A DNA stretch of 64,000 nt from Alphaproteobacteria bacterium (GTDB lineage: Bacteria; Pseudomonadota; Alphaproteobacteria; MPNO01; UBA830), in assembly GCA_965221485.1 (NCBI GenBank), contig OZ244893.1, positions 1,929,129-1,993,128 of the forward strand, written 5' to 3'. The notes under the pieces were generated by a model. That model worked only from the letters and a program-made list of their open reading frames with translations. It made no database searches and was not told the origin of the DNA. This document shows, piece after piece, positions 44,826 to 61,926 of this stretch. Position 1 is the stretch's first letter; each line of letters opens with the position of its first letter. Position numbers and translations under genes: made by a program.

Positions 44826-45732
44826 CGATCCACCCTTCCCAGATGGATCAGAACCGGAATTCGTTGGGATCGCTGTCTTTGCCAGCGAGATGGCGCATCA
44901 GGTTCGGGACAAGACACCAGCATTTCGCGGAATCAGTTCGCCTGAGTGACAGTGATCACTCTTCGTTGACAAGTCTTGCATGACTGACACGACGTACCGT
45001 CACCCTGGAATGTTTCTGGATCGGCGCCTGCCATTGACTGACGGCCAAGGATATTCATGACGAGAAAGAAACTGCGCTGGATTGCACCTTGACGAGAGGT
45101 GGTCTTGATGGTCGCGTCTCTGAATTCGACGTGCTCCCCGGTCCGGACAACAGCAGCCGCTGAGAAACCCGCAAGCTGCCGTTTTCCCGCCACAGGCTGT
45201 TACCACGGACCTTGTCGGCTGAGATCTCCGGAACAACAGCCAGCGTCCCGCTGAAACCGGGATACCGTCGCACTGATCCTGTCGAACTGCAAATCTTCCG
45301 CTTCCCGTCCTCCCGATACCAGGCAAAGACCACTCGTTTCTTTTGGCACAATATATAGAATGTTTGATTTAAATTGTTCATATATGTGGAGTTTCGGCGT
45401 CTCTCATGATAGGGGTTTTGTTGTGGGTCAAAGTTAGAAAAACAGACGAACTTCTATAACCGGGAAATCCCGGACTCCCTGACTTCAGCGCATTGGTTAT
45501 GGAGGCTTTCATACACCGGAAATCGTGTGAATTTCCCTGATAATGTGAATTCCGGCATTGAAATCACACCCTCAATTGGTCTATTGTTGTGGTCAGGCTT
45601 GAAAAAGCTGTCCACGCGTATCTCAACAAGCAACTTGCAAGAACAGTGCTTCGGTCCGCGGGTTGTGGATGAACGGAGGCCGCAAGGCTGTGGCCACCTG
45701 CCCATCGGCGACGTTTACGGGAACAAGTGATT

Positions 45733-45909
45733 ATGGCTGACAGAACATCAACACAAGCTGACTGGGAAGAAATTGAAGAGGACGAACGGTCTATTCAAAA
45801 TGTGCCCAGTGAACGCAGTTGTCTTTCTTGCGGTGAAAAATTCGTCAGTGAAGGATGGCACAATCGGCTCTGCCTCCGCTGCCGCAAACGAAGTGGACCC
45901 GACTATTAG
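45733..45909 (+). CDS. Small Zn-ribbon-like protein (CxxC-x14-CxxC)
   Basis: RSCLSCGEKFVSEGWHNRLCLRC with an acidic N-terminus. GC-rich hairpin at 45914-45930 follows the stop. Alternative GTG start at 45727. Confidence 0.65.
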   Translation: MADRTSTQADWEEIEEDERSIQNVPSERSCLSCGEKFVSEGWHNRLCLRCRKRSGPDY

Positions 45910-46057
45910 GTCCGGGGTTGCTGCAGCCCCAAAAAACTTGACAAGAGTTTCAGATCCACCTGCATCGTGCCGGGGTTTCCCCGTCTGAGTCCTTGGCCTA
46001 CAGTCGAAGTTGCTGGTCATGCACAAGTGTTTCCTGATCGTCGCAGGAAAATCCCGG

Positions 46058-46375
46058 TTACGGGATACAGGAGGAGCATCGGCCTGGCACCGCCACGGCA
46101 CCGTTATTCCGAAGTGCGAAAACCGGGACGCCATGATTGGGGAGGTTCATGAGCATCAAGTGGTGGTCGGTGGTTCCGCTCGCCTTCCGGGCGAGAAGCC
46201 TGAGCCCGTGTCGCTTGCGGTAGTTTTCGTCGATGTGATCGAACAGGGCCGGGTCGGGCATGAGAGCGTCGACGCCTTTCAGCGGACCATTGCTGCCGGG
46301 GTGATAGGCGTCACGGCAGAACAGGAGGTCGAACACGCCGGCCGAAACCGGTTTGAGCTGCTCCAGCGGCGGCAA
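46058..46375 (-). pseudogene. Fragment of an unidentified protein-coding gene
   Basis: Codons are strongly G/C-ending from 46375 to about 46140, then composition changes. The opposite strand reads as a typical shadow ORF. FDLLFCRD weakly recalls SAM-methyltransferase motifs. Confidence 0.35.
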
Positions 46376-46430
46376 TGGCCCTCGGGTCGGTTTCTGGCCA
46401 TCATTTGACGAATTGCTGGACGGCGAGGCA

Positions 46431-47495
46431 ATGACCTATATCGACGACGACGCGTGGCGCTATTTCTGGCACCCTGTCTGCACCCTCGCGGAGCTGCGCG
46501 CAGAAGCGGACGACAACCGGCCGCTGGCCGCGACCCTGCTCGGCGAGCGCATCGCCGTCGCCGAAATCGCTGGTGCGGTCACAGTCTTCCCAGACCGCTG
46601 CCTGCACCGTTCCACACGACTGTCGATGGGCACGATCGAGGATGCCGGACTGCGCTGCGCCTATCACGGCTGGCTCTACGACGCCGACGGTGCCTGCATC
46701 GAGATTCCGGCCATGCCCGACTACCCGATTCCGCCCGATTGCCGACTCCGCGCCTTCGAAACCCGACTCGCCTACGATCTGGTCTGGGTGCGGCTGCAGC
46801 CCGGCGCAGGGACCGCCATTCCGGGCTGTCCGGCCTGGGACGACGATGCATTCCGCTGCATCCAGGGTGCCCCCTATACCTGGCCGACCTCGGCGGCGCG
46901 TCGGCTCGAGAATTTCGTCGATCTGTCGCATTTTCCGTTCGTGCATGATGGTAGTCTCGGCGACCGTCGCCTGACCCAAGTCCCCATCGCCAACATCGAC
47001 CGTATCGAAGGCGAGCTGCGCTTTCGCTTCGAACCGGCGCCGGGCATGGACCTGCCCGATATCGCCTTGATGGCGCCGACCGATTACCGCCTGTGGATGC
47101 CATTCTCGGTCAACCTTGAGTTCTTCTTTGCCGACGGCGAGCGCAGCCAGCTCTGGATGACCGCCTCGCCGGTGGAGCACGGGGTCTGTCGCAGTTTCTG
47201 GTTCACCAGCCGCACCGCTGATCGCCACGGCGACGATCGGCCACATCTCGAATTCCAGGATCTCGTGCTGGCCGAGGACCTGCCGGTGATCGAGGCACAG
47301 CACCCGCCCGGGATCCCGGCGCCAGCCGAGGAATATTCGGTACCTACCGACAAGGTTTCCATCGTTTATCGCCGGTGGCTACGCGAACTCGCGGAGGCTG
47401 CGGGCGAAGGCACTGAAGCGCTCGCCCGCAGCCTCGCTACGGTAAGGCTCGAATCGGACTCTCGCCGGGCGAACGTCCGATCCCAGGCGGACTGA
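46431..47495 (+). CDS. Rieske oxygenase, methylxanthine N-demethylase NdmA/NdmB-like
   Basis: RYFWHPVCT..EL, DRCLHRS.RLS.GT, CAYHGW, PY.W...A.RRLENFVDLSHFPFVH, MPFSVNLE, AED.PVIE.Q and DKVSIVYRRWLREL match recalled P. putida CBB5 NdmA/B segments (not aligned computationally). Confidence 0.8.
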   Translation: MTYIDDDAWRYFWHPVCTLAELRAEADDNRPLAATLLGERIAVAEIAGAVTVFPDRCLHRSTRLSMGTIEDAGLRCAYHGWLYDADGACIEIPAMPDYPIPPDCRLRAFETRLAYDLVWVRLQPGAGTAIPGCPAWDDDAFRCIQGAPYTWPTSAARRLENFVDLSHFPFVHDGSLGDRRLTQVPIANIDRIEGELRFRFEPAPGMDLPDIALMAPTDYRLWMPFSVNLEFFFADGERSQLWMTASPVEHGVCRSFWFTSRTADRHGDDRPHLEFQDLVLAEDLPVIEAQHPPGIPAPAEEYSVPTDKVSIVYRRWLRELAEAAGEGTEALARSLATVRLESDSRRANVRSQAD

Positions 47496-47508
47496 GCCGC
47501 CGCGCCGG

Positions 47509-48870
47509 TCAGGCCGCCTCGATATCCTCCGGCAGCACCACATTCAGGATCGCGGCCGCTACGCCCGCCACCACGATGCCCGAGACGAACAACGGCAGCG
47601 ACCATGCCGGCAGGACATCGCTCGGAAGCGGCCCGAAACCAGCCGCGCCGGCGAGCTGTTCGACCTGCCAGAGCCCCATCCCTAGACCAAGCGAGATTGC
47701 CGCAATCAGCATATTGCGGGTCGATAGTCCGGACCGAGCCACCAGTTTGAGCCCGGCCGCAACAATCAGACCGAACATCACAACCGCGGCACCGCCAAGC
47801 ACCGGCTCGGGCATCGCCGCGATCACCGCCGCGAGCTTCGGCACCAGGCCGCAGAGCAGCAGGAAGATCGCGCCGACCGTCACCACATGGCGACTCATCA
47901 CCCGGGTGAAGGACACCAGGCCCACATTCTGGCTGTAGGACGTGTTCGGCAGGCCGCCGAACAGCGCCACCACCGCCGAGCCCAGCCCGTCGGCCATGAT
48001 GCCGCCGCGCAGTTCCTTGTCGGTCGGCTCGCGGTCGGCGCCACCTGCGGTTACTCCTGAGATGTCGCCGACGGTCTCCACCGTAGTGATGAAAGCCATG
48101 ATGATCATCAGTCCTATCAGCCCGATCGCCGCCGGGGTCGAGAATTCGAGCCCGAACCATTGGTCCGGCAGCCCGACCCAATCGGCCTTGCCGATGGCCT
48201 CGACCTTTCGCGAGCTCATCATTCCGAACGGGATCGCCACCAGGTAGCCGATCACCAGCCCAATAAACACCGCCGAGGTCGACCAGATCCCACGCCCGTA
48301 TCGGCGGAGTACAAGGATCGCGATGATCACGAACAGGGCCATCGCCCAGTTCCCGGCGTCGCCGAACCCGGCATCCTTGCAAAACCCGGCCGGGTAGGCG
48401 CCACAACCGGCCGAATATTTTATGCCGACCGGCAGCAGGGTGAAGCCGATGGTCATGACCACGACGCCAGATACAAGGCTCGGGATGAAACGTCGGATCT
48501 GAGGTATGAAATACCCCAGAATCATCTGAAACAGCCCGCCCACGAGGCTCGCGCCGAACACCGCTGCGAGACTTGCACCACCCTTGATCGCGGCAGTGAG
48601 AATCCCGACATAGGCGAAGCTCGTACCCTGAACGATCGGTAAGCGTGCACCGATCGGCCCGATGCCGATTGTCTGTATCAGCGTCGCTACGCCAGCAGCC
48701 AGAAGGGCGATCTGTACCAGCACCGTGACGTATTGCGGCCCGGCCGCCAGTGCAATGATCAGCGGGACCGTGATGTTGCCGGCGAACATCGCGAGCACAT
48801 GCTGGATGCCGAGAGGGATTGCCTCGCCAATCGGCGGTTTATAGTCTGGAGAATTATGTTGTTCGTTCAT
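47509..48870 (-). CDS. NCS2/NAT nucleobase permease, xanthine/urate type
   Basis: GIQHVLAMF, LPIVQGTSF, and NAT signature SQNVGLVSFTRV (Gln form, typical of xanthine/urate carriers). Confidence 0.92.
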   Translation of the reverse strand: MNEQHNSPDYKPPIGEAIPLGIQHVLAMFAGNITVPLIIALAAGPQYVTVLVQIALLAAGVATLIQTIGIGPIGARLPIVQGTSFAYVGILTAAIKGGASLAAVFGASLVGGLFQMILGYFIPQIRRFIPSLVSGVVVMTIGFTLLPVGIKYSAGCGAYPAGFCKDAGFGDAGNWAMALFVIIAILVLRRYGRGIWSTSAVFIGLVIGYLVAIPFGMMSSRKVEAIGKADWVGLPDQWFGLEFSTPAAIGLIGLMIIMAFITTVETVGDISGVTAGGADREPTDKELRGGIMADGLGSAVVALFGGLPNTSYSQNVGLVSFTRVMSRHVVTVGAIFLLLCGLVPKLAAVIAAMPEPVLGGAAVVMFGLIVAAGLKLVARSGLSTRNMLIAAISLGLGMGLWQVEQLAGAAGFGPLPSDVLPAWSLPLFVSGIVVAGVAAAILNVVLPEDIEAA

Positions 48871-48988
48871 TTCGCTGCCCTACTGCGTTTCGTTATTGAT
48901 GATGGAACGTACTCCGCCCCAGGCTTTAGCCGCAGGGACAAATCCTTCACCGCGCGGGGTCTGGCCGCGGACGCGAGAGCTCCGCGTT

Positions 48989-49004
48989 ATTATACCCTAT
49001 AGGG
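48989..49004 (-). promoter_or_regulatory. Perfect -10 (TATAAT) abutting palindrome CCCTATAGGG upstream of the NCS2 gene
   Basis: Minus-strand TATAAT at 48994-48989, about 120 nt before the ATG. A 10-bp palindrome at 48995-49004 fills the spacer. The -35 is weak. Confidence 0.5.
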
Positions 49005-49316
49005 GCCCACACAGAATCGCCTTTTTTCGAGACCGAGGCATGTTCAAGAGTTGTGATAGGAACGATTTTCGGACCAGTGGTTAACCGAGTAGTCCGTTTT
49101 GAGGGGGCTGTAGAGGAGCTGCAGCGGCATCGGTAGTGGATTCCAGCTGTTTGCAGGTACCCGGAACAGCTGTCCTGTGGCCCAGCTGACTTTTGATTTG
49201 TTCTGTTTCGAGACCTGCTCAGCGTTCACTCGCGTTCCGGCCCGCATAGTCGCTCAATGGCTTCTATGCGGCCCTTTGACGCCGCAGTGCTTCAGTCGAT
49301 TTTGTTCCCTCCATGA

Positions 49317-50423
49317 ACCGCAACATCTGCTACCAACCGGAGTGACAGTGGTCGGGCGGGGTTCGTATCCGCCGGGAAGACGCGCCTTTTCAAGACGCAC
49401 GAGATCACTATGGGGTATCGGAAACAAGGCACCACTCTGGACCTTTCCTCCAGCGGGCGAGGCTTGCAACAGACGCTGTTGATTGTCGCCTACATGTACG
49501 CCCACCCCGGCGCAATCATTCTTCTGGATGAGCCGGATGCCCATCTCGAAAATTTGCGACAAAGTCAGACTGATGCATTGATCTCCAAGGTCGCTTCCGA
49601 CAGTGAAAGTCAGATCATTGCAGCGAGCTATTGGCAAGTTCTTCTCAACGAAGCTGCCGAAAAGGGCGTGGTCATTGCCTTCGTCGAAACCCCGCACCGC
49701 ATAGAGGGCGGGCAGAGCCAGGCGCGCAAGGCTTTGGCTGAAGTTGGCTTTGACCAATATTATCAGGGCGAACAGACCGGATAGGTGTTGTGTGTCGAAG
49801 GTCCAACCGATCTGGCCATATTGCAGGCGTTCGGCCGAAGGTTCTGCAAGGAAGACACCGTCAGTAGACCTTTCGTGCACTATGTCGGAAACCAGCCGCG
49901 AGCGGCCGCGCAGCACTATTTTGGCCTCAAGGAATCACTGCCTGGCCGACAGGGCGTCTCCCTGTTTGATCGGCTTCAGGGCGAGGTACCTGACAGTCCG
50001 GCGTTGAACCACCTTGTCTGGCAGCGAAGGGAAATCGAGAACTATTTCTGTACCGAAGCAACCCTTAAAGCCTATGCTCGCGCATCTGCATCGGATGACA
50101 CAAATATGCCCCTGTTTGTCTGGTCCGGGAGGGACAAGCGCCTCTCTGCGATGAGAGAAGCGATTTCCGAGGTCAAAAAAGCTCTTGAAACTCTGGGCAA
50201 AGACTCTCCATGGGATCCCGATCTCAAGGTAAGCGACGAGTTCCTCAAACCGTTGTTCAGGTCATATTTTGCAAAAATGGGCATACCAAACCTTATGAAC
50301 AAGAAGAATTTTTACGAACTCGCGGACCATGTCCCGGATCACGCGACAGATCCGGAAATCAGCCTCAAGCTGGACGAAATCGTAAGGGTTGCCAATCTTG
50401 CAACACCCGCAGTCTTCAGCTGA
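49317..50423 (+). pseudogene. Decayed AAA/ABC-ATPase + TOPRIM-like nuclease gene (OLD/AAA_21-type, defence-like)
   Basis: LSSSGRG signature and Walker B LLDEPDAHLE. In-frame TAG at 49782-84 directly before VLCVEGPTD (TOPRIM), then WQRREIENY. H-loop reads ASYWQ. No Walker A N-terminus is present. Confidence 0.8.
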
Positions 50424-50602
50424 CCGCCACGAAAATTGGCAACGAGCCCGGCCTTCTGCCGAGCCCGGGGAAGCCCGGCCAACGAGTGACGATGTCCGAT
50501 CCACAACAGTGGCTCCCTGTGCATCCCCGTCCGCCACAACAATCCCTGACGGGCCCTCAAAAGCGAGATGAACCTGCCAACAGGCTGGTTACGTGGGATG
50601 CT

Positions 50603-51943
50603 TTAACGGAGGCCGGATTCCGTTGACGGATTCAAACTGACGTCCCATTCCACTTCCAGATTCTGCACACCGCGGAACGTGAGGGTCGGGATATAGCGGA
50701 ACGTCTGTTCCGGTTTCAGTCGCATATGCGGGAGCCTGCGGATCAGTTCCTCCAGAATGACCTTCATTTCCATCCGCGCAAGGGGCGCGCCCATGCAGAA
50801 ATGGGCTCCGTGACCCAGACCCAGATGACGCCGGGCATTGTGTCGCGAAGGATCAAATTCCTCCGGGTTCGCAAATGCATCGGGATCACGGTTCGCCGAG
50901 CCCATCATGACAAGGATTTTGCTCCCCCTGGAAATCGGAACAGTGCCAATCCGGGTATCCCGTGTCGCGATCCTCCGCCAGGCAAAGATTGAACTGTCAT
51001 ATCGAAGGATCTCTTCAACGGCATTGGGAACCAGGGAAGGATCAGCAACCAGTCGTTCCCACTTGTCCCGCTCACTCAGCAGCTTCCTCAGCCCGTTAGC
51101 AGAAGCCTGGGTCGTCGTCTCGTGACCCGCAAACTGCATCAGAAACATGACGTTACGAAGGTAGTTGATCGAAAACCGTGTCGGGTCCTCCCGGTACAAA
51201 CGCACCAGATCGCCGAGATAGTTGTCTCCGGGACATTCAAGCGCATCGTCGACCAGTTTGACTGTGAAATCCCAGGACGCACCCATGTCAGCCATCATGG
51301 CAACCTGCTCCTCGTCACTGGGGAAACCCCAGTTGACGATGGCCCGTTTTGATCCCAGCGTCTTCACCATAATCGCCTTGTCGTCAGGCGCCCCCAGAAA
51401 GATAAAGATCGCCAGCGCGGGAACCTCATACAGCATCTGGCCGACAAGTTCGGCCCTGCCATCATCAATGAAACGATCAATGTAACGCGTGACGATCTTG
51501 CGTACCTGCGGTTCAACCTCATTCACCCGCTTGGGTGTGAACGCGTCACCGAAGATTTTCCGGTGCTTCCTGTGCGTCGCTGCTTCTTCGTCGACGAGCG
51601 ATGGTTCGATCTCGATGTTGAGAGTGTCACGGACTCTCGCCGCTTCGGGACACAGCGCCCTGACCGGATGCCGGGCAACGGCAGGTGAGAACGTTTCCGG
51701 ATCGCGAAACACACTCACACAATCGGCGTATTTCATCACGACCCAGCATTTCATTTCCGGACTGTAAAATACCGGTTCGGCTTCACGCGTTTCCGAGAAA
51801 AAACGATATGGGTCGGCGACATAGTCTTCCGAAAACGGCACAAAGGCTTTACCGGCAGCGGTGACCGGGCATTCGGGAGTGTTTTCCTGAGTCTCTCCTT
51901 GAGGATCAGACTGGAACATCCCGTATGAGTGTTTGCTGCTCAC
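50603..51943 (-). CDS. Cytochrome P450, stand-alone CYP116-like heme domain
   Basis: CPV...F.PF..Y..DPY, EPVFYSP, I-helix FAGHETT, EEILR (ExxR), AWRR.ATRDT and heme loop GHGAHFCMG. GTG 51943 has a GGAGG RBS; ATG 51958 is an alternative. Confidence 0.93.
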   Translation of the reverse strand: MSSKHSYGMFQSDPQGETQENTPECPVTAAGKAFVPFSEDYVADPYRFFSETREAEPVFYSPEMKCWVVMKYADCVSVFRDPETFSPAVARHPVRALCPEAARVRDTLNIEIEPSLVDEEAATHRKHRKIFGDAFTPKRVNEVEPQVRKIVTRYIDRFIDDGRAELVGQMLYEVPALAIFIFLGAPDDKAIMVKTLGSKRAIVNWGFPSDEEQVAMMADMGASWDFTVKLVDDALECPGDNYLGDLVRLYREDPTRFSINYLRNVMFLMQFAGHETTTQASANGLRKLLSERDKWERLVADPSLVPNAVEEILRYDSSIFAWRRIATRDTRIGTVPISRGSKILVMMGSANRDPDAFANPEEFDPSRHNARRHLGLGHGAHFCMGAPLARMEMKVILEELIRRLPHMRLKPEQTFRYIPTLTFRGVQNLEVEWDVSLNPSTESGLR

Positions 51944-52166
51944 ATCGCCTCCAATCATGACTTCAGAAATACGGGCTGAGGCACTTTATCCACCGATCCG
52001 TGCAAAACACAGTCGACTCATTCAGCGGGCCCTGCTGTCGTCCGTCCGGATCTCTCCGTCAACCCAAAAGACGGAACCGGCAACCGTTCGAGCTGCCCGG
52101 AAACGCGGCAACGCCGGCCGTGTCTTTCGCATGTTCTCATGTCATGCGGTCGATCACGTTTCGACT

Positions 52167-52757
52167 TCATAACGTGATACTGGGATTTCGGAGATTTCGG
52201 TCACAGTTGATCAGATTCACCTGCTTGACGTGGATCGCAGCTGTACCGCGCGAAAGCAACTCCAGCCTGTGCGCAAACCAGCCTGCCCAGGTTTGCTGCA
52301 TATCTGCCTGGAGTTCGGTAATCAGAAAGTTGGATCGGACCATGACAAATCCGGGCACGTCCGCCCGGTATACCGTCACATTGGACACGATCCGGCTGGT
52401 GCGGGAGGCGGGAACCTGAGACCAGGCATGACCGGTTCGAAGTCGGAAAATACGGTCCTGCAGCCGGCGACGGTCATCGAAAGCGACCGCAACCTCTCGT
52501 GAGGGATCGCCACCGCCGGGCGTGGCAGGGACCCAGTACAGGCATTCGTCGGCAAAGAGCGACAACCAGTCTTCATGCCGATCTTCCTCAAGAAGCCGGG
52601 CCTCCCGCTCCAGCAGGCTTCGGCATTGATCCCGTGTCGTCGGATCAGAAATCTCGCGTTGATCGGCCTGCCAACCCGAAAACTGCCGGGCGAGCCTGCC
52701 ATAGAAGCCGGAATCAATATAAAGCGACTGTCCGGATGGCTCCGCGTGATCCATCAC
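52167..52757 (-). CDS. Aromatic ring-hydroxylating dioxygenase beta subunit
   Basis: REARLL...W..LF....YWVP, DDRRRL.DRI.RL.T..AWSQ.P.SRT.R.VSN and VNLINCD. Confidence 0.92.
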   Translation of the reverse strand: MMDHAEPSGQSLYIDSGFYGRLARQFSGWQADQREISDPTTRDQCRSLLEREARLLEEDRHEDWLSLFADECLYWVPATPGGGDPSREVAVAFDDRRRLQDRIFRLRTGHAWSQVPASRTSRIVSNVTVYRADVPGFVMVRSNFLITELQADMQQTWAGWFAHRLELLSRGTAAIHVKQVNLINCDRNLRNPSITL

Positions 52758-54133
52758 GCAGCATCCTGTGGGTCACGCGTTATGGCGATATTGGGCTCCG
52801 TCGTCATGAAACGCCGATAGGCCCGAAAATACTCGCGAAGGAATACCTCGTCGGTTGCTGGTCCGCGCACCGTCCCCTCTGCATCAACCTGATGCCGGCC
52901 CGGTACATCAAGTCCGCGATGGATGTAGGCCCATTCATCTTCTTCGGCGGCAAGTCCGACCTGGATCTGTTCAAAATTCATGAGGTCGTCAACCTCACCG
53001 AAATTGGGAAACCCTTCCTGGGTTCTCATGCGCAACGCGTTGATGTCGTCCACCGCGCCGTCCAGCACATCATTTTCGTCGACCACAGCGGTACCCCACC
53101 ATGTGGTATCGGTCTCGTTCACCGACAGCGGCTGCACGACCTGTACATGATTGCCAAGGATGTGAAGATTGGGAAAGACATTGATATTGACGGGCTCCGA
53201 GGACGCAAGGTCAAGAAATTCGTCCGCCCGCCCTGAATGCTCACGTCTCAATTTTTTCTCAAAGGCCTCCATTCCCGGGTGCAACGCCTCAATTTCCCAC
53301 AGGGCACCGGGCTTGCCTCGATCAATTGTGCCTCTCTTGTCCTTGAAGTGATGTCCGTTTCGGTAGGCGTAAACATAAATTGGACCCGTATCGGGTGATT
53401 CCTTGTAGAACGCCATGCCCTTGTCCGGATGATCCGCCATGCGGTTTTCCATTGCCAGAAGGGAACGGTGCGAAAACACCACGTGGTAGCCATCGGCGGA
53501 GTTGTCATAGACAAGCTTCCAGTTGCCTTGCAATTTCAGGCGATTGGCATTGCAGAGAGCGACCGTCCCTCCCGGATGTCGATCGAGCCACTCCTCAAGA
53601 GGGCGCCGGACCGGACCAAGATATTCGAGAAGTTCCGGTGCATCGAGATTCAATGTTCCAAAAATAAAACCGCGGAAAGATTCGACGCGTGGGACCTGGG
53701 CCAGATTGAATTTGGCATCACGGAAATCCTCCGCATATCCCTCGGGCCAGGGAACCCCCGAAATCTTGCCTGAATTGAGAAAAGTCCAGCCGTGATAGGG
53801 ACACTGGAACGATTTCGCAGACCCGCTGTCGACCCGACAGACCGTCGAACCACGATGTGTACAGCGATTGAAGAGAGCCCGGATACAACCATTGGCATCC
53901 CGGGTAAGAATGATCGGCCGCAAACCCAGCCGTGTCCTGACGAAATCATTCCGTTCCGGAATTTGGCTTTCATGTCCGAGATAGACCCACACCGCGCCGA
54001 AGATCCGGGTCATTTCCTTCCGAAAAATCGGCTCCTCGGTATAGAGCAGGCGATGAACCCGATCCTCCTGAATCAGGTAATCAAAATCATAGTCCGCATC
54101 GAAGCCCATCGTGCGAGGGCTTACCCCATCCAT
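52754..54133 (-). CDS. Ring-hydroxylating dioxygenase alpha subunit, aniline dioxygenase AtdA3/TdnA1-like
   Basis: NRCTHRG...CPYHGW, NWKLVYDNSADGYHVVFSHRSLL, FPNL..LGN.VQV..PLSVNET and RMRTQEGFPNFGEVDD..NFE resemble recalled AtdA3 segments. Confidence 0.9.
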   Translation of the reverse strand: MDGVSPRTMGFDADYDFDYLIQEDRVHRLLYTEEPIFRKEMTRIFGAVWVYLGHESQIPERNDFVRTRLGLRPIILTRDANGCIRALFNRCTHRGSTVCRVDSGSAKSFQCPYHGWTFLNSGKISGVPWPEGYAEDFRDAKFNLAQVPRVESFRGFIFGTLNLDAPELLEYLGPVRRPLEEWLDRHPGGTVALCNANRLKLQGNWKLVYDNSADGYHVVFSHRSLLAMENRMADHPDKGMAFYKESPDTGPIYVYAYRNGHHFKDKRGTIDRGKPGALWEIEALHPGMEAFEKKLRREHSGRADEFLDLASSEPVNINVFPNLHILGNHVQVVQPLSVNETDTTWWGTAVVDENDVLDGAVDDINALRMRTQEGFPNFGEVDDLMNFEQIQVGLAAEEDEWAYIHRGLDVPGRHQVDAEGTVRGPATDEVFLREYFRAYRRFMTTEPNIAITRDPQDAA

Positions 54134-54179
54134 CGCTGTGATCCTGCTTCATCCATGGTGTTGGATCATCATACCCTGA

Positions 54180-55667
54180 TCAGAAGAAATCGTAATATTC
54201 ATTCTGCTCCCATTGGCTGACCGGGCCCTCCCCGGGTTCGTGTTTTGAATAACGCTCTGCTTGCCTGTACCTGGTCCATTCAGCCGCCTTGAGACGGAGA
54301 TAATAGTCCATAAAGACATCTCCGAATGCTTCACGAAATAAAGCACTCTCATTCAGCGCCTCAAGGGCCTTTCCCAGATTTTCGGGAAGGCGCGGCCTGT
54401 CCGCCTCGTAAGGGGCATCGTCCTCGGGCTGCAATTCGGATGCATGCTCCATCCCGTCAAGGCCAGCGACGATTTGTGAAGCGATGAACAGATACGGGTT
54501 GGCTGCAGGCTCGCCCGCGCGGTTCTCGATCCGGGAGGACGGATCGTCCGCGCCCCCGATAACCCGCATGAGAGCGCCGCGATGATCCGAACACCAGGTC
54601 ACCCGATCAGGAGCCAGAGAGTTTGGTCGAAACCTCCGGTACCCGTTGACAGTCGGAGTGGCGAAGACAGTGGCCGGGAGTGCATGCGTGAGGAGCCCGG
54701 CCAGAAACTGCCGTCCCGTCTCTGAAAGCGCTTCGGTACGCGACGGCGTGAACCGGTTTACGCCATCATTCTTGCCGACCAGAGACTGGTGCAGGTGCCA
54801 GCCGCTGGGAAAATGATTCTCGAGAGCGGGCTGGCACATGAACGTCGCAAAATATCCATGCCGCCGGCAAACCTGGCGGGTCGCGGTACGGAACAGTACG
54901 TAATCGTCAGCAGCTCTCATCGCATCCCGGGCGGCAAACGTAGTCTCCACCTGTCCCGGTCCATACTCGTTCTCGAGCGAACGAAATCCGAGATCGAGCC
55001 TGCCGTAAGCCCATGCCAGCTGATCGAAAATAGGCTGTATCAGATCAAGATTGGTTTCCGAGTGATATGAGTAACCCGGTTCAACGGGTGCGGTTTCAAC
55101 CGGCCGCCCGCGCCGGCCAGGCAAACCGGTATTGTCCGCTGTCAGCCGTTCCTGGGTCACACGGGCGACGTACCATTCCACCTCAAGACCGATCCGGTGG
55201 ACGAACCCAGAGGCTTCCAGGCGTCGGACCTGCCGTCGCAGAAGATGGCGCGACGAAAAGTGGAAGGGAATGCCGCTCCGAAAATACTCGTCACAGAGGA
55301 TCCAGCCCACTCTCCTTGCCCAGGGCAAGATCCGAAATGTTTCGGGATCGGGAACAATGACAAGATTGGGAGAACCCGTCATCTCGTCGAGATCCATGCC
55401 TCCACCACGAATGAACGAAGTGAAGACCCGTCCGCCCGACCCATCAAGGGTCGATGTGGCCACGTTGATGTTGTAGCCATTGACGAGCATGTCGCGAAAG
55501 GCCTCAACCGACAACGACTTGGCGCGCGCGGCGCCGTGAGGATCGGCCCATACGACCCGGATCAGGTGCAGCCGGTGTTTCTCGATCTCATCTGAAAGTC
55601 GGGTGGCCCGCTCCGACTGGATGTCCGTCCACAACCCGTGCCGCTCGATGAAGCCTTCAGTCTTCAT
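54180..55667 (-). CDS. Glutamine synthetase-like gamma-glutamyl ligase, AtdA1/TdnQ-like
   Basis: GFIERHGLWT, VPDPETFRILPWA, GLEVEWY, SGWHLHQSL, PTVNGYRR, RIENRAGEPAANPY and C-terminal VSQWEQNEY. ATG 55667. Confidence 0.9.
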   Translation of the reverse strand: MKTEGFIERHGLWTDIQSERATRLSDEIEKHRLHLIRVVWADPHGAARAKSLSVEAFRDMLVNGYNINVATSTLDGSGGRVFTSFIRGGGMDLDEMTGSPNLVIVPDPETFRILPWARRVGWILCDEYFRSGIPFHFSSRHLLRRQVRRLEASGFVHRIGLEVEWYVARVTQERLTADNTGLPGRRGRPVETAPVEPGYSYHSETNLDLIQPIFDQLAWAYGRLDLGFRSLENEYGPGQVETTFAARDAMRAADDYVLFRTATRQVCRRHGYFATFMCQPALENHFPSGWHLHQSLVGKNDGVNRFTPSRTEALSETGRQFLAGLLTHALPATVFATPTVNGYRRFRPNSLAPDRVTWCSDHRGALMRVIGGADDPSSRIENRAGEPAANPYLFIASQIVAGLDGMEHASELQPEDDAPYEADRPRLPENLGKALEALNESALFREAFGDVFMDYYLRLKAAEWTRYRQAERYSKHEPGEGPVSQWEQNEYYDFF

Positions 55668-55852
55668 GATCCAACATTTTCCTGTATTGCCAGTGCCGTG
55701 TCTCCGACAGGGTCGCGGCATACTCTATCAGGTCTCCGCCGGGAGGCGAGCGGCGCGTTGGTTCCGGAACGGAGCTCAGCAGTCTGCCTGGGCGGCCCTT
55801 CGGAACGGGTTCTCCCGATGGTTCGGATTGCGAAAACCGGTTTCACACATTG

Positions 55853-56448: not shown

Positions 56449-56524
56449 TGGTGGAGCCGAGGGGAGTCGAACCCCTGACCTCAGCATTGCGAACGCTGCG
56501 CTCTCCCAACTGAGCTACGGCCCC
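56449..56524 (-). tRNA. tRNA-Ala(CGC)
   Basis: 76 nt GGGGCCGTAGCTCAGTTGGGAGAGCGCAGCGTTCGCAATGCTGAGGTCAGGGGTTCGACTCCCCTCGGCTCCACCA. G3:U70 pair, anticodon CGC, encoded CCA. Confidence 0.98.
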
Positions 56525-59085: not shown

Positions 59086-59526
59086 CACACTATAATCATT
59101 GAACCTGTTCGCGAAACAAGACCGCTGGAAGGGCTCGGGAGACGCCATGCCACTCGCAAAGCCTGCTGCAGCCATATATCGCCGACCACTGTTTTCCGTC
59201 AGCTGCCTGCAGAACCCATGGACAAGCGGATCCGGATGACGGCATGGGCACATTCCTCAGGGACCGGTCTGCCGAGTACAGCCGCGTCGTCATTTCAGCC
59301 GGGATGGTTGGCGGAAGCCAGGTTCGGACCACACGGCCTCCGGCGTTGCAGGCAGCGACACCGCACACTATATCTTATTCTGGGAGTATCGTGCCGATGA
59401 TCACCCTGTCATTCCGCCGGCGTCAACGGACCGGTAGAGTGCCTCGAATATACCCTGAGTGATGGCGGGACTTGCAATCGTGACGAAGCCTCGACCCTCC
59501 CGGTGGGGAACGACCAGGATAATTTC

Positions 59527-61926
59527 ATGGCGGGTCTGACAGAAGGGTCAAAACGCTTCAATCTCTCCATCAAGGGAATGACGTGCAGCGCCTGCGCCTC
59601 ACGACTTGAGTCCTCACTCTCTCGAACAACCGGAATTCGTGAGGCCTCGGTCAATTTTCCGCTGGAGCGAGCGACCGTCACAATCGACCCATACGTGGCC
59701 CTTGACAAGATTGTCGATGCCGTAAACCGGACCGGGTTCTCGGTGGAAACGGAATCTCGCATCATGACGCTCGAGGAAGCAATCGAGCCTGGCCTCAGAA
59801 GCCGGATCGAGACAAATTTGCAGGATCTGCCCGGTATCGTTTCAACCCGTACTGATCCGGATACGGGACGGATCCATATCGAGATGCTGTCTCATGTCGT
59901 TCCGGATGAAGTTCTGAATGCCAGCATTCAGACCGCCGGCGGTACGGCAACAGCCATCGCAGATGATCTGGATCAGGGTGATCGGGAGCGAAGGCATACC
60001 GTACGAGAGAATTGGATCATCCTGCTGGCCTTGCTCCTCACCACACCCTTCCTTCTTCAGATGATTGCTGGTATCGCAGCTCCGGGTCGCTGGCATCTGC
60101 CACCCCTGATCGAGATGGCACTCGCTACGCCATTGCAATTTGTGATCGGATGGCGATTTTATCTCGGAGCTTTTCATGCCCTTCGCAACGGCAGCGCCAA
60201 TATGGACGTGCTGGTGGCCATGGGCACCAGCGCGGCCTGGTTTTACAGCAGTTACATGCTGTTGACGCTCGGTCCTGACTCGGTCGGTCATCTCTATTTC
60301 GAAACGTCCGCAGTCATCATCCTTTTGGTCCTCATCGGCAAGTCGATGGAAAATCGCGCCAAGCGGGGCGCAGCGCGAGCGATCCGCGAACTGATGGCGC
60401 TCGAACCGGAAACCGTTCTCCTCCGACTGGCCGACGGCAGCACTGCAGAGTGTCCAACGCGAAATCTCAAGCTCGGTGACACTCTGGTTTGCCGGGCGGG
60501 GCAGCGGATTGCAGCCGATGGAATAGTCGTCAGTGGTGAAGCCGAAATTGATCAGTCTCTCATCAATGGAGAAAGTCTTCCGGTTCACAAGACACCAGGA
60601 GACACGGTCTCAGCCGGTTCCATCAACGTCGACGGACTGATTGACATCAAGGCGACCGCGACCGGTGCCAATTCATCCCTGGCCCGGATTATTGGCCTCA
60701 TCGAGGAGGCCCAGGCTGGCAAACCGGCAATCCAGAGATTGGCAGACCGGGTCTGCGGCGTCTTCGTTCCCGTCGTGATTGCCCTGGCGGTAGCAACCTT
60801 CATCGGCTGGACCGTTACTGGCAGCGGACTGGAACAGGCTGTCATCACGGCCGTCTCCGTTCTTGTCATTGCCTGTCCCTGCGCCCTCGGCCTGGCGACA
60901 CCGACGGCCATCATGACGGGATCCGGAGCGGCAGCACGGGCCGGAATCCTCATTCGCGACGTCACGGCCCTTGAGCGTGCGCACGCGCTCACCCATATGG
61001 TGTTCGACAAAACGGGCACGTTAACCACTGCGCAACCCTCCTTGCGCAAAATCGTGCCGCTCGCTGATATCACGGAAACCGAAGCTCTTCGCATTGCCGC
61101 TTCTCTCCAGCAGGGCAGCCAGCATCCTGTTGCCCGATCCCTTCGTGATGCCTCTGCTGCGCGCAGGCTCGATGTCCTGCCGGTCAGCGGATTCCGAAGT
61201 CTGGTGGCTCGAGGTGTCGAGGGAAACATTGACGGCGTGCATTACCAGCTCGGCAGCCAGCGGCTTTTTGCTGATCCGGGTGCTCACAATCTGGGAGAAA
61301 CCGCTACCGATGGAATCGTTGTCTGGCTCGCCAGACTGAGCGGCAACAAGTCAGAACTTCTCGCCCGATTTGACCTGGCGGAGGCACTTCACCCGGGAGC
61401 CGAAGCTGGCGTAGCACAGGTGCGGAAGCTTGGACTGGTACCGCTTCTGCTGTCGGGCGACGGCAGCCTGCCAACACGGCAACTGGCCGACCGGATGGGG
61501 ATCCAGGAGTTTCATGGCGAACTGCTTCCAGAGGACAAGGCGCGGATTATTGCGGAAGTGACCCGGAAGGGTGGAAGCGTCGGCATGGTTGGTGATGGAA
61601 TTAACGACGCGCCTGCATTCGCTCAGGCGTCCGTCGGTATTGCGATGGGCTCGGGAACCGATATCGCAAAGGAGTCAGCGGCCATTACACTCCTGCGTCC
61701 CGATCCGCGTCTGGTCGCCGCAGCTGTTCAGATAAGCCGCGCAACGTTTCGCAAGATCAAGCAGAACCTCTTCTGGGCCTTCATCTACAATGTGATCGGT
61801 TTGCCGCTCGCCGCTTCCGGGCTGCTGAGTCCGGCGCTCGCCGCAGCTGCAATGGCAACCTCCAGCGTTTGTGTCGTCACCAATTCTCTCCTTCTCCGCT
61901 CCTGGAAGCCCGCTTCTCAAGACTGA
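59527..61926 (+). CDS. copA: Cu(I)-type P1B-1 ATPase
   Basis: HMA GMTCSAC, TM CPC (ACPCALGLATP), DKTGT, HP, GDGINDAPA, YN and MATSS Cu(I) motifs. ATG 59527 with AGGA RBS; track start is GTG 59503. Confidence 0.9.
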   Translation: MAGLTEGSKRFNLSIKGMTCSACASRLESSLSRTTGIREASVNFPLERATVTIDPYVALDKIVDAVNRTGFSVETESRIMTLEEAIEPGLRSRIETNLQDLPGIVSTRTDPDTGRIHIEMLSHVVPDEVLNASIQTAGGTATAIADDLDQGDRERRHTVRENWIILLALLLTTPFLLQMIAGIAAPGRWHLPPLIEMALATPLQFVIGWRFYLGAFHALRNGSANMDVLVAMGTSAAWFYSSYMLLTLGPDSVGHLYFETSAVIILLVLIGKSMENRAKRGAARAIRELMALEPETVLLRLADGSTAECPTRNLKLGDTLVCRAGQRIAADGIVVSGEAEIDQSLINGESLPVHKTPGDTVSAGSINVDGLIDIKATATGANSSLARIIGLIEEAQAGKPAIQRLADRVCGVFVPVVIALAVATFIGWTVTGSGLEQAVITAVSVLVIACPCALGLATPTAIMTGSGAAARAGILIRDVTALERAHALTHMVFDKTGTLTTAQPSLRKIVPLADITETEALRIAASLQQGSQHPVARSLRDASAARRLDVLPVSGFRSLVARGVEGNIDGVHYQLGSQRLFADPGAHNLGETATDGIVVWLARLSGNKSELLARFDLAEALHPGAEAGVAQVRKLGLVPLLLSGDGSLPTRQLADRMGIQEFHGELLPEDKARIIAEVTRKGGSVGMVGDGINDAPAFAQASVGIAMGSGTDIAKESAAITLLRPDPRLVAAAVQISRATFRKIKQNLFWAFIYNVIGLPLAASGLLSPALAAAAMATSSVCVVTNSLLLRSWKPASQD

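What the first reader, a model, noticed from the sequence alone, without database searches (positions are those of the whole stretch)
50603..55667. Aniline-dioxygenase-like gamma-glutamylation module lacking AtdA2/AtdA5 and followed by a CYP116-like P450
Seen: four co-oriented minus-strand genes (GS-like ligase, Rieske alpha, beta, P450). Known: in Atd/Tdn aniline dioxygenases the GS-like protein gamma-glutamylates the arylamine, the alpha/beta oxygenase dihydroxylates it, and the operon also has a glutamine amidotransferase-like gene (AtdA2/TdnT) and a reductase (AtdA5/TdnB). Here ligase and alpha are adjacent, with no GAT, reductase or catechol dioxygenase nearby. A P450 follows that resembles the CYP116 heme domain; CYP116A1/ThcB N-dealkylates thiocarbamates. 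Inference: an uncharacterised route for N-substituted or natural aromatic amines, with P450 N-dealkylation feeding glutamylation and ring dihydroxylation.
Basis: partly seen in the sequence, partly recalled or inferred. Interest (0 to 1): 0.72.

Follow-up and report, generated by a model that had tools for sequence, protein, structure and literature searches.

The report
Conserved arylamine ligase-dioxygenase cassette; P450 incidental
The ligase and two-subunit Rieske oxygenase are a real, widely conserved but uncharacterised three-gene relative of aniline dioxygenase, probably for a polar aromatic amine, while the P450 next to it arrived with a strain-specific insertion and is not part of the system.

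Summary
The four co-oriented minus-strand genes exist as described. They are a GS-like ligase (54180-55667), Rieske alpha (52754-54133), beta (52167-52757) and a stand-alone CYP116-like P450 (50603-51958). No AtdA2-type amidotransferase, reductase, ferredoxin or ring-cleavage gene was found in the 64-kb window.

The ligase-alpha-beta triad is the real unit. Relatives of alpha occur in 473 species genomes. In the 80 best loci the ligase is adjacent in 71 and beta in 79, and none has a GAT or FNR/PDR reductase nearby. So the "missing" parts are a trait of the whole family.

Both proteins fall outside the Atd/Tdn clades, each in its own clade. The ligase's substrate-tunnel loop is remodelled, with an invariant Arg where aniline and naphthylamine ligases carry hydrophobic residues. 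Sulfanilate-type ligases also have basic residues in this loop. I infer a polar or anionic arylamine as substrate.

The P450 link fails. No P450 follows the triad in any of 80 relatives. None of 26 P450-ortholog loci, nor four further P450-ortholog contigs, carries the ligase. Two genomes hold both genes 0.8 and 2.1 Mb apart. The closest syntenic relatives lack a 6.2-kb mosaic block that carries the P450.

The parts
54180..55667 (-). GS-like gamma-glutamyl-amine ligase (495 aa; a longer ORF runs to 55721)
   Evidence: PF00120 matches at E 6.5e-74. PDB 8wwu, the NpaA1 1-naphthylamine ligase, matches at E 3e-139. Identity to Npa, Tdn-type and Ado ligases is 43-47%. F86, Y201, E232 and E234 (NpaA1 numbering) are conserved. 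The tunnel loop is remodelled with an invariant Arg at position 81.
52754..54133 (-). Rieske oxygenase alpha subunit (459 aa)
   Evidence: Rieske and Ring_hydroxyl_A domains are present. C91/H93/C111/H114, D214, H217/H222 and D382/D383 are invariant in the family. Identity is 41-44% to Npa, Tdn-type and Ado alpha, and 48-50% to actinobacterial alpha. It forms its own clade in the NJ tree.
52167..52757 (-). Rieske oxygenase beta subunit (196 aa); overlaps alpha by 4 nt
   Evidence: PF00866 matches at E 2e-29. Identity to reference beta subunits is 34-44%. It is adjacent to alpha in 79 of 80 relatives.
51959..52166 (-). Beta-P450 intergenic gap, where homology to relatives ends
   Evidence: Nucleotide homology to L002, L003 and L008 stops at the beta stop codon. 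The consensus scan finds no terminator-like or promoter-like site in the gap. Contigs from three runs span it.
50603..51958 (-). Stand-alone CYP116-like P450 (446-451 aa). It is a neighbour, not part of the conserved module.
   Evidence: PF00067 matches. Identity is 41.5% to the heme domain of 6kbh and 38% to 6gii. The Cys-ligand motif GHGAHFCMG is present and there is no reductase domain. Orthologues lie in unrelated contexts.
45910..52166 (.). A block of about 6.2 kb that is absent at this site in the closest syntenic relatives. It holds a VanA-like Rieske gene, a xanthine permease, a group II intron fragment, ATPase remnants and the P450.
   Evidence: In blastn against L002, L003, L005, L008 and L009, beta is followed within 0.7-2.6 kb by HbpS, with the 60-aa ORF matched in between in L002 and L003. 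Gene maps of L102 and L103 show the same.
49230..49374 (-). Group II intron D1-D4 fragment
   Evidence: Rfam RF02003 scores 48.5 bits, E 3e-9, just under the gathering score of 49. Its core is multi-copy in run X3.
49410..50423 (+). AAA_21/SMC-type ATPase C-terminal remnant (49410-49784) plus a 212-aa unknown ORF (49785-50423), convergent with the P450
   Evidence: Weak Pfam hits to AAA_21 and SMC_N, at E about 1e-3, cover only the C-terminal part of the profiles. The second ORF has no hit.
47509..48870 (-). NCS2 xanthine/uracil permease, inside the extra block
   Evidence: PF00860 matches at E 4.5e-83. TIGR03173 pbuX scores 380 bits, below its cut-off of 414.
46431..47495 (+). VanA-like Rieske monooxygenase, inside the extra block
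   Evidence: Rieske and VanA_C domains are present.
56449..56524 (-). tRNA-Ala(CGC) upstream of the ligase; a conserved synteny anchor
   Evidence: ARAGORN calls it. It is 100% identical in L008 and about 89% identical in L003, L005 and L009.

Best explanation
The functional unit is the three-gene cassette of ligase, alpha and beta. It belongs to a large, uncharacterised sister family of the aniline-dioxygenase systems.

**Likely mechanism (inferred from the Atd/Npa systems)**
- The GS-like enzyme uses ATP to attach L-glutamate, through its gamma-carboxyl, to the amino group of an aromatic amine.
- The alpha3beta3-type Rieske oxygenase then dihydroxylates the ring of the gamma-glutamyl anilide at the carbon that carries nitrogen. 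The product collapses to a catechol-type compound and the nitrogen leaves with the glutamyl moiety.
- Electrons must come from a reductase or ferredoxin encoded elsewhere in the genome.
- There is no AtdA2-type hydrolase acting as a safety valve.

**Likely substrate**
- The ligase's substrate-tunnel loop has lost the aromatic PFFFD patch.
- It carries an invariant Asn, two Thr and an Arg at the position that sets aniline versus naphthylamine selectivity in NpaA1.
- The natural substrate is therefore probably a polar or anionic arylamine, such as an aminobenzoate-like compound, rather than aniline.

**The P450**
- It is an unrelated stand-alone class-I enzyme.
- It sits on a strain-specific mosaic block of about 6.2 kb, with mobile-element debris, at the 3' end of the cassette. 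Compared with its closest relatives, this looks like an insertion.
- Any co-transcription would be read-through, not a conserved pathway design.
For: **Shown**
- The triad is conserved. The ligase is adjacent in 71 of 80 loci and lies elsewhere upstream in 4 more. Beta is adjacent in 79 of 80.
- Relatives of alpha occur in 473 species genomes, and 1341 proteins match at E<=1e-30.
- None of the 80 loci has a GAT, FNR/PDR reductase or ferredoxin homologue. One has a weak ferredoxin-reductase hit. The window has none of these.
- Catalytic residues are intact.
- The ligase matches NpaA1 at E 3e-139, against 1e-48 for true glutamine synthetases.
- Ligase-associated alphas are 41-50% identical, against about 35% for the next Rieske oxygenases.
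- NJ trees place the window family in its own clade. Bootstrap support is 89 for alpha (100 replicates) and 100 for the ligase (60 replicates).
- Across NpaA1 positions 68-81 the family reads I-N-V-A-T-x-T-L-D-x-x-G-G-R. N69, T74, L75 and R81 are present in 72 of 72 sequences. Characterised ligases read xT(M/S)(A/G)PFFFDTAS(A/G) followed by F, I or M.
- Mutagenesis in PMC11335346 shows that F75 and M81 control substrate choice.
- Ligases of the sulfanilate type (N. resinovorum SA1 pSA3 and relatives) carry K75 and R80 in the same loop.
- The P450 is unlinked in relatives.
- Synteny breaks exactly at the beta stop codon. It resumes at a 60-aa ORF and HbpS.
- The extra block holds a group II intron fragment and a truncated ATPase.

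**Inferred**
- The chemistry, the release of nitrogen with the glutamyl moiety, a reductase supplied in trans, and an anionic substrate.
Against: - There are no biochemical or expression data for any member of the family.
- No electron-transfer partner was identified, because only 64 kb of this genome was visible.
- The invariant Arg could contact glutamyl-phosphate or a neighbouring subunit rather than the substrate.
- I could not model the oligomer or dock ligands.
- The trees are neighbour-joining on few reference sequences and lack a GS outgroup.
- AtdA1/A3 and TdnQ/A1 themselves were represented only by plasmid homologues (NpaA, pTB30, AdoQ).
- The simple scan found no terminator between beta and the P450, so co-transcription in this strain is not excluded.
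- Neighbouring genes differ between clades and give no consistent hint of a downstream pathway. Examples are UbiD plus TauD, or SDR plus FAD monooxygenase plus cupin.
Confidence: 0.6

Rival explanations
1. The four genes form one pathway in which the CYP116-like P450 N-dealkylates an N-substituted arylamine. The freed amine is then glutamylated and dihydroxylated.
For: - The genes are co-oriented, only 208-223 nt apart, and the scan found no terminator in the gap.
- The P450 resembles the CYP116 heme domain.
- CYP116A1/ThcB dealkylates thiocarbamates (my own knowledge).
- The junction is real in three independent runs.
Against: - No P450 follows the triad in any of 80 relatives.
- None of 26 P450-orthologue loci has the ligase. 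The four closest orthologue contigs lack it too.
- Both genes are present but 0.8 and 2.1 Mb apart on two relatives' chromosomes.
- The P450 lies on a block missing from the five closest syntenic loci and sits beside mobile-element debris.
- No ferredoxin or reductase for a class-I P450 is in the window.
Confidence: 0.08
2. The triad is an ordinary aniline or chloroaniline dioxygenase core that relies on unlinked accessory genes.
For: - Identity to Npa, Tdn-type and Ado components is 41-47%.
- NpaA2 (the GAT) is dispensable for conversion in vivo (PMC11335346).
- F86, Y201, E232 and E234 are conserved.
Against: - Ligase and alpha form separate clades.
- The hydrophobic tunnel residues shown to matter for aniline (F75 and position 81) are replaced by Leu and Arg in 72 of 72 family members.
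- The cassette is chromosomal, sits among housekeeping genes, and is common in open-ocean and soil MAGs rather than on catabolic plasmids.
- No catechol-cleavage genes are nearby.
Confidence: 0.15
3. The cassette acts on a non-aromatic amine, or the oxygenase does something other than deaminating ring dihydroxylation. An example is hydroxylation or dealkylation of a gamma-glutamyl amide, as in the isopropylamine (Ipu) pathway.
For: - GS-like 'GoaS' ligases also serve aliphatic amines such as isopropylamine and putrescine (PMC11335346).
- The tunnel loop is more polar.
- Neighbours such as TauD and SDR are not specific to aromatic compounds.
- Rieske oxygenases catalyse many reaction types (abstract of PMC12445004).
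Against: - The nearest characterised relatives of both ligase and oxygenase all act on arylamines.
- The aromatic pocket residues F86, Y201 and an aromatic residue at 235 are retained.
- Several clades place UbiD, dienelactone hydrolase, FAD aromatic hydroxylase or cupin genes next to the triad.
Confidence: 0.12

Closest known systems
Aniline / chloroaniline / 1-naphthylamine dioxygenase systems (AtdA1-A5, TdnQTA1A2B, DcaQTA1A2B, AdoQTA1A2B, NpaA1-A5)
   Same: - A GS-like ligase is encoded next to a two-subunit Rieske oxygenase, in the same order (ligase, then alpha, then beta).
- Identity is 43-47% for the ligase, 41-44% for alpha and 34-38% for beta.
- The amine-binding Glu pair and F86/Y201 are conserved.
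   Different: - No GAT-like gene lies between ligase and alpha, and no reductase follows beta. This holds across 80 relatives.
- Ligase and alpha form separate clades.
- The tunnel loop is polar, with an invariant Arg.
- The cassette is chromosomal among housekeeping genes, not on IS-flanked catabolic plasmids.
Actinobacterial aniline-dioxygenase-like clusters (Dietzia kunjamensis pDK2035-69, Rhodococcus gordoniae pDND3A)
   Same: They have the closest alpha (48-50%) and beta (41-44%), and the alpha clades are sisters in the NJ tree.
   Different: - Their gene order is alpha, beta, GAT, ligase, ferredoxin, FAD reductase, with catABC nearby.
- Their ligases group with Atd/Tdn and keep the PFFFD loop.
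Sad-type 4-aminobenzenesulfonate dioxygenase clusters (Hydrogenophaga intermedia PBC sadABCD; homologous clusters on N. resinovorum SA1 pSA3, Caballeronia p2, M. nodulans pMNOD01)
   Same: - A GS-like ligase is coupled to a Rieske oxygenase for an anionic arylamine.
- Basic residues sit in the ligase tunnel loop.
- The sad operon is conserved in genomes with little xenobiotic exposure, which points to a natural substrate (PMC5632844).
   Different: - The oxygenase has an alpha subunit only and precedes the ligase.
- A ferredoxin and an FAD reductase are encoded alongside.
- Ligase identity is only 43-46%, and these ligases form a separate clade.
- Assigning the pSA3 cluster to sulfanilate is my inference from gene order and the strain's phenotype.
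CYP116 P450s (CYP116B self-sufficient enzymes; CYP116A1/ThcB)
   Same: The best structural-database matches are 6kbh (E 1e-105), 6gii, 6ldl, 6laa and P450-RhF 6ro8. Identity to the 6kbh heme domain is 41.5%, and the heme-thiolate motif is intact.
   Different: - There is no fused phthalate-family reductase domain.
- No adjacent ferredoxin or reductase is present.
- Identity to 6gii is only 38%, so family membership is borderline.
- I could not compare it with ThcB itself.
Isopropylamine (Ipu) pathway of Pseudomonas sp. KIE171
   Same: It is a precedent for a GS-like ligase working with a P450, which hydroxylates the gamma-glutamyl amide. This rests on my own knowledge; the ligase is listed among the GoaS enzymes in PMC11335346.
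   Different: There the P450 acts after glutamylation and the genes are a dedicated operon with redox partners. Here the P450 adjacency is unique to one lineage.

Membership tests
Aniline dioxygenase (Atd/Tdn/Dca/Ado/Npa) system | GS-like gamma-glutamyl-arylamide synthetase encoded with the oxygenase | tested here: met
   NpaA1 (8wwu) matches at E 3e-139. Identity to reference ligases is 43-47%. The ligase is adjacent to alpha.
Aniline dioxygenase (Atd/Tdn/Dca/Ado/Npa) system | GAT-like gamma-glutamylanilide hydrolase (AtdA2/TdnT/NpaA2) in the operon | tested here: not met
   tblastn finds no hit in the 64-kb window or in 80 related loci.
Aniline dioxygenase (Atd/Tdn/Dca/Ado/Npa) system | Dedicated reductase (AtdA5/TdnB/NpaA5) after beta | tested here: not met
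   No FNR/PDR-type reductase, ferredoxin or ferredoxin-reductase homologue is in the window. Among the 80 relatives there is one weak ferredoxin-reductase hit.
Aniline dioxygenase (Atd/Tdn/Dca/Ado/Npa) system | Alpha subunit and ligase fall inside the Atd/Tdn clades | tested here: not met
   In the NJ trees the window family is its own clade, with support of 89 for alpha and 100 for the ligase. It is distinct from the Npa/pTB30/Ado/Hydrogenophaga clade, which has support of 100 and 98. Alpha does lie inside the wider clade of ligase-associated oxygenases (support 77).
Aniline dioxygenase (Atd/Tdn/Dca/Ado/Npa) system | Hydrophobic aromatic substrate tunnel in the ligase (P72, F73-F75, hydrophobic residue at 81) | tested here: not met
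   The window and 72 of 72 relatives have L75 and R81; T72 is in the window and 65 of 72. N69 and T74 are also invariant. The roles of the residues come from PMC11335346.
Aniline dioxygenase (Atd/Tdn/Dca/Ado/Npa) system | Converts aniline to catechol via gamma-glutamylanilide | not testable with these tools
   This needs enzyme assays.
Rieske non-heme iron oxygenase, alpha-beta type | Rieske CXH...CXXH motif, bridging Asp and 2-His-1-carboxylate iron site, plus a beta subunit | tested here: met
   C91/H93/C111/H114, D214, H217/H222 and D382/D383 are invariant. PF00355, PF00848 and PF00866 all match.
CYP116 P450 family | At least 40% identity to a CYP116 member (P450 nomenclature rule; my own knowledge) | tested here: inconclusive
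   Identity is 41.5% to the 6kbh heme domain but 38% to 6gii. I could not compare it with CYP116A1.
CYP116 P450 family | Heme-thiolate ligand motif and the I-helix AGHETT | tested here: met
   GHGAHFCMG and FAGHETT are present and invariant among orthologues.
CYP116 P450 family | Redox partner: a fused PFOR-like reductase (CYP116B) or an adjacent ferredoxin plus reductase (CYP116A1 ThcBCD) | tested here: not met
   The protein is 446-451 aa with a heme domain only. No ferredoxin or reductase is in the window.
Sad-type 4-aminobenzenesulfonate dioxygenase | Alpha-only oxygenase followed by the GS-like ligase, with a ferredoxin and FAD reductase | tested here: not met
   Here the order is ligase, alpha, beta, with no redox genes (compare).

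The most novel reading that the evidence does not exclude
The minimal ligase-alpha-beta cassette may define a widespread, so far unstudied route by which free-living Alphaproteobacteria, including open-ocean lineages, take up a natural anionic aromatic amine. Candidates are p-aminobenzoate, anthranilate or a related metabolite. The route would work by gamma-glutamylation followed by deaminating dioxygenation, with the ligase's invariant tunnel Arg reading the acidic group. A less likely extra is that, in this one lineage, the newly juxtaposed P450 has been recruited to widen the substrate range.
Probability: 0.3. Interest if true: 0.6.

Novelty: new variant of a known kind. Interest (0 to 1): 0.42.

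Why it matters
Gamma-glutamylation-dependent arylamine oxidation is known almost only from pollutant-degrading plasmids. This analysis points to a compact three-gene version of it.

- **Widespread:** relatives of its alpha subunit occur in 473 species-level genomes, many from marine and soil MAGs.
- **Ordinary setting:** it sits in normal chromosomal contexts.
- **Different pocket:** its ligase pocket is built for a different, probably polar, substrate.

That would move the chemistry from xenobiotic degradation to natural aromatic-amine turnover. It also gives a concrete family to test. The analysis removes a tempting but unsupported P450 coupling as well.

Tried and rejected
**Checks that came back negative or uninformative**
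- I looked for RNA evidence of co-transcription. The run search returned only contig or DNA runs of the source metagenomes and no RNA. The contigs only confirmed that the region is contiguous.
- The promoter and terminator consensus scan of 45.5-57 kb gave counts close to the shuffled expectation and nothing in the beta-P450 gap, so it was uninformative.
- I searched for a conserved accessory gene around the triad by clustering crude ORF calls from the 80 loci. No cluster other than the ligase, alpha, beta and their antisense shadow ORFs was present in more than 12 loci. High-GC shadow ORFs polluted the clusters.
- I tested whether the P450 has its own conserved partners. The ABC transporter and aminotransferase context is shared only among near-identical genomes and vanishes at 60-70% identity, so no partner can be inferred.

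**Ideas considered and dropped**
- I asked whether the Rieske alpha-beta pair near the closest P450 orthologues (L093, L104, L105) is the same oxygenase. It is a different family, at 29% identity.
- I considered that the ATPase remnant beside the P450 matches the AAA_15 gene beside the P450 orthologue in L093. There is no similarity.

**Literature gaps**
- Literature searches for a characterised member of this clade found nothing in the held library. The same was true for gamma-glutamyl-4-carboxyanilide and 4-aminobenzoate. My recollection of a Paraburkholderia pab cluster could not be verified and is not used as evidence.

Full report
**1. Observation**

Four co-oriented minus-strand ORFs occupy 50603-55721.
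- Pfam and NCBIfam identify a P450 (50603-51958), a Rieske oxygenase beta subunit (52167-52757), an alpha subunit (52754-54133) and a glutamine-synthetase-family protein (54180-55721). None reaches an equivalog cut-off.
- Gene calls on an independent assembly of the same organism (L001) and alignments to homologues put the ligase start at 55667 and allow a P450 start at 51943.
- Alpha and beta overlap by 4 nt. The ligase and alpha are 46 nt apart.
- Contigs from three independent runs cover the beta-P450 junction without differences, so the arrangement is real.

**2. What is and is not nearby**

I took GAT-like hydrolases, FNR/PDR reductases, ferredoxins and ferredoxin reductases from six annotated reference clusters. 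These were Pseudomonas JS3066 npa, Comamonas pTB30, Sphingobium YBL2 ado, Hydrogenophaga PBL-H3, Dietzia, and Rhodococcus gordoniae/Shinella.
- tblastn with these queries found nothing in the 64-kb window.
- Pfam scans of the other large ORFs show an ordinary chromosomal region. It holds Cox-type molybdoenzymes, pyruvate kinase, BioB, ArgG, FolD, transporters and two VanA-like Rieske genes. No ring-cleavage dioxygenase is present.

**3. The triad is a conserved family-wide unit**

- The alpha subunit has 1341 homologues at E<=1e-30, with more than 100 at 65-80% identity. Where a source names them, they are from Rhodospirillales, Hyphomicrobiales or Xanthobacteraceae, and one large cluster is also held by TARA.
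- A scan of one genome per GTDB species found 473 genomes with a relative. I fetched the best 80 loci with 10-kb flanks.
- The ligase lies directly upstream of alpha in 71 of these. It is further upstream on the same strand in 4, absent in 3, and undeterminable in 2 truncated contigs. Beta follows alpha in 79.
- None of the 80 loci has a homologue of an AtdA2-type GAT, an FNR/PDR reductase or a ferredoxin. One has a weak ferredoxin-reductase hit.
- No other neighbour is conserved beyond sub-clades. An ocean clade that includes TARA contigs has UbiD upstream and TauD downstream. A clade whose GTDB representative is labelled Defluviicoccus has DSBA-like and SDR genes upstream and an FAD monooxygenase plus cupin downstream. 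The window's own clade has only housekeeping genes.

**4. Relation to known systems**

- The best solved structure for the ligase is 8wwu (E 3e-139, against about 1e-48 for true glutamine synthetases). This is NpaA1, the 1-naphthylamine gamma-glutamyl ligase.
- Ligase identity is 43-47% to NpaA1, the pTB30 TdnQ/DcaQ-type ligase, AdoQ and the Hydrogenophaga ligase, and 40-41% to actinobacterial ones.
- Alpha is 41-44% identical to the corresponding proteobacterial alphas and 48-50% to the alphas of actinobacterial clusters that carry GAT, ligase, ferredoxin, reductase and catABC. Identity then drops to about 35% for unrelated Rieske oxygenases.
- In neighbour-joining trees the window family forms its own clade. 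For alpha, support is 89, and the clade is sister to the actinobacterial clade inside a wider group of ligase-associated oxygenases. For the ligase, support is 100, and the clade is separate from the Atd/Tdn-plus-actinobacterial, Sad-type, Shinella/Rhizobium and Nostoc groups.
- The cassette is thus homologous to the A1-A3-A4 core of aniline dioxygenase but is not a member of the Atd/Tdn clades.

**5. Substrate hint**

- In NpaA1 the loop V68'-M81' of the neighbouring subunit lines the amine tunnel. F75, F86 and W235 form the bottleneck, and position 81 switches aniline versus naphthylamine preference (PMC11335346).
- The Atd/Tdn-type and actinobacterial ligases, including the characterised NpaA1, read xT(M/S)(A/G)PFFFDTAS(A/G) followed by F, I or M. 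AdoQ and the Shinella-type ligases deviate at some of these positions.
- The window protein and all 72 relatives read I-N-V-A-T-x-T-L-D-x-x-G-G-R. N69, T74, L75 and R81 are invariant. F86, Y201, E232 and E234 are kept, and position 235 stays aromatic.
- A second ligase group is encoded after alpha-only oxygenases with a ferredoxin and FAD reductase. One example is on plasmid pSA3 of the sulfanilate degrader N. resinovorum SA1. The gene order is that of the Hydrogenophaga sadA-sadB system for 4-aminobenzenesulfonate. These ligases carry K75 and R80 in the same loop.
- I infer that the window family binds an aromatic amine with a polar or acidic substituent. This is an inference, not a demonstration.

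**6. The P450**

- It is a 446-451-aa heme domain with an intact Cys-ligand motif.
- Its best matches are 6kbh, 6gii, 6ldl, 6laa and 6ro8 (P450-RhF). From my own knowledge these are CYP116B-type structures.
- Identity is 41.5% to 6kbh and 38% to 6gii, so 'CYP116-like' is fair and family membership is borderline.
- It belongs to a large family of stand-alone P450s found in the same bacterial groups.

**7. The P450 is not linked to the triad**

- No P450 is detectable within +-10 kb of the triad in 80 of 80 loci. Of these, 70 have at least 2 kb beyond beta.
- In the reverse direction, 26 metagenome loci with P450 orthologues of at least 60% identity contain no ligase homologue. The four closest orthologue contigs, at 78-83% identity, also contain none. 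Their nearby Rieske alpha-beta pair is a different family, at 29% identity.
- P450 orthologue contexts differ from clade to clade.
- On two chromosomes that carry both genes they are about 0.8 and 2.1 Mb apart. Compare the ranges.

**8. How the P450 got there**

- The closest relatives share a common gene order. It runs ArgG, EamA, FolD, YggT, tRNA-Ala, ligase, alpha, beta, then a 60-aa CxxC ORF, HbpS-like and MFS.
- In the window, homology stops at the beta stop codon (about 52170) and resumes at 45902. The 6.2 kb in between is extra.
- That block holds the P450, a truncated AAA_21-type ATPase ORF with a 212-aa partner on the opposite strand, and a group II intron D1-D4 fragment whose core is multi-copy in a metagenome. 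It also holds a xanthine permease and a VanA-like Rieske gene.
- The window also carries two further lineage-specific additions: an IS630-type transposase beyond HbpS, and a CopA gene between EamA and ArgG.
- The adjacency is best read as the product of local insertion and rearrangement.

**9. Mechanism and verdict**

- Most likely the ligase glutamylates an arylamine, the alpha-beta oxygenase performs a deaminating dihydroxylation, and electrons come from a reductase encoded elsewhere. There is no hydrolase safety valve. NpaA2 is dispensable in vivo in the known system.
- Shown: homology, intact catalytic residues, conserved architecture, a remodelled tunnel and the unlinked P450.
- Inferred: the chemistry, the substrate class and the redox partner supplied in trans.
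- The 'aniline-dioxygenase-like module without A2/A5' reading is right, but it describes a family trait.
- The P450-feeding pathway is not supported.
- I rate this as a new variant of a known kind, of moderate interest because of its breadth in uncultured marine and soil Alphaproteobacteria and its distinct ligase pocket.

Noticed in passing
window 49230-49374 (-); core 49205-49254: A group II intron D1-D4 fragment (RF02003) scores 48.5 bits, just below the gathering score of 49, at E 3e-9. About 50 nt of it is highly multi-copy in metagenome run X3, with a depth of about 860 against about 2 for its surroundings. No intron-encoded protein or D5/D6 match was found, so it looks like a remnant.
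   Followed up: partly
window 49410-50423 (+): A 124-aa ORF matches only the C-terminal part of the AAA_21/SMC_N ATPase profiles. It is followed directly by a 212-aa ORF with no family hit. This may be a decayed two-gene ATPase system, convergent with the P450.
   Followed up: partly
window 43193-44275 (-): An IS630-type transposase (HTH_23/HTH_32 plus DDE_3) lies between HbpS-like and the MFS gene. It is absent at this site in syntenic relatives.
   Followed up: partly
window 59503-61926 (+): A copper P-type ATPase (CopA-like) lies between EamA and ArgG. Relatives L003 and L008 go straight from EamA to ArgG. In the independent assembly L001 this gene and ArgG are each split into two calls, probably because of assembly indels there.
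   Followed up: no
window 45727-45909 (+); L003 12610-12789 (-): A small conserved 60-aa ORF with two CxxC pairs (SCLSCGEKF...RLCLRCRKR) lies next to the HbpS-like gene. It is conserved in relatives and its function is unknown.
   Followed up: no
window 56449-56524 (-): Rfam reports this as tmRNA at 47.6 bits (gathering score 47). ARAGORN calls a normal tRNA-Ala(CGC), and the match is only 76 nt long, so the Rfam label is spurious. The distance from this tRNA to the ligase varies from 0.8 to 6 kb among relatives.
   Followed up: partly
L082, L090 versus L084-L087 (trees): The actinobacterial clusters' alpha subunits are sister to the window family, but their ligases group with the Atd/Tdn ligases. 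This suggests that ligase and oxygenase modules have been reshuffled during evolution.
   Followed up: no
L184 (N. resinovorum SA1 pSA3), L185 (Caballeronia insecticola p2), L186 (M. nodulans pMNOD01): A second architecture consists of an alpha-only Rieske oxygenase, a GS-like ligase, a ferredoxin and an FAD reductase, with or without a PuuD-like hydrolase. Nitroreductase genes are often nearby, which hints at nitro- or aminobenzoate or sulfanilate catabolism.
   Followed up: partly
L187, L188 (P450 orthologues at 66-68% identity): In these chromosomes the P450 orthologue sits next to GcvT-like and DAO-FAO_M-GCV_T (dimethylglycine/sarcosine-oxidase-like) genes. L188 also has a VanA-like Rieske gene nearby. 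This may hint at a role with methylated amines. It was not tested.
   Followed up: no
window 34523-35584 (+): A second VanA-type Rieske monooxygenase gene lies here, followed by a 318-aa ORF without a Pfam hit and an MFS transporter. It is unrelated to the finding.
   Followed up: no
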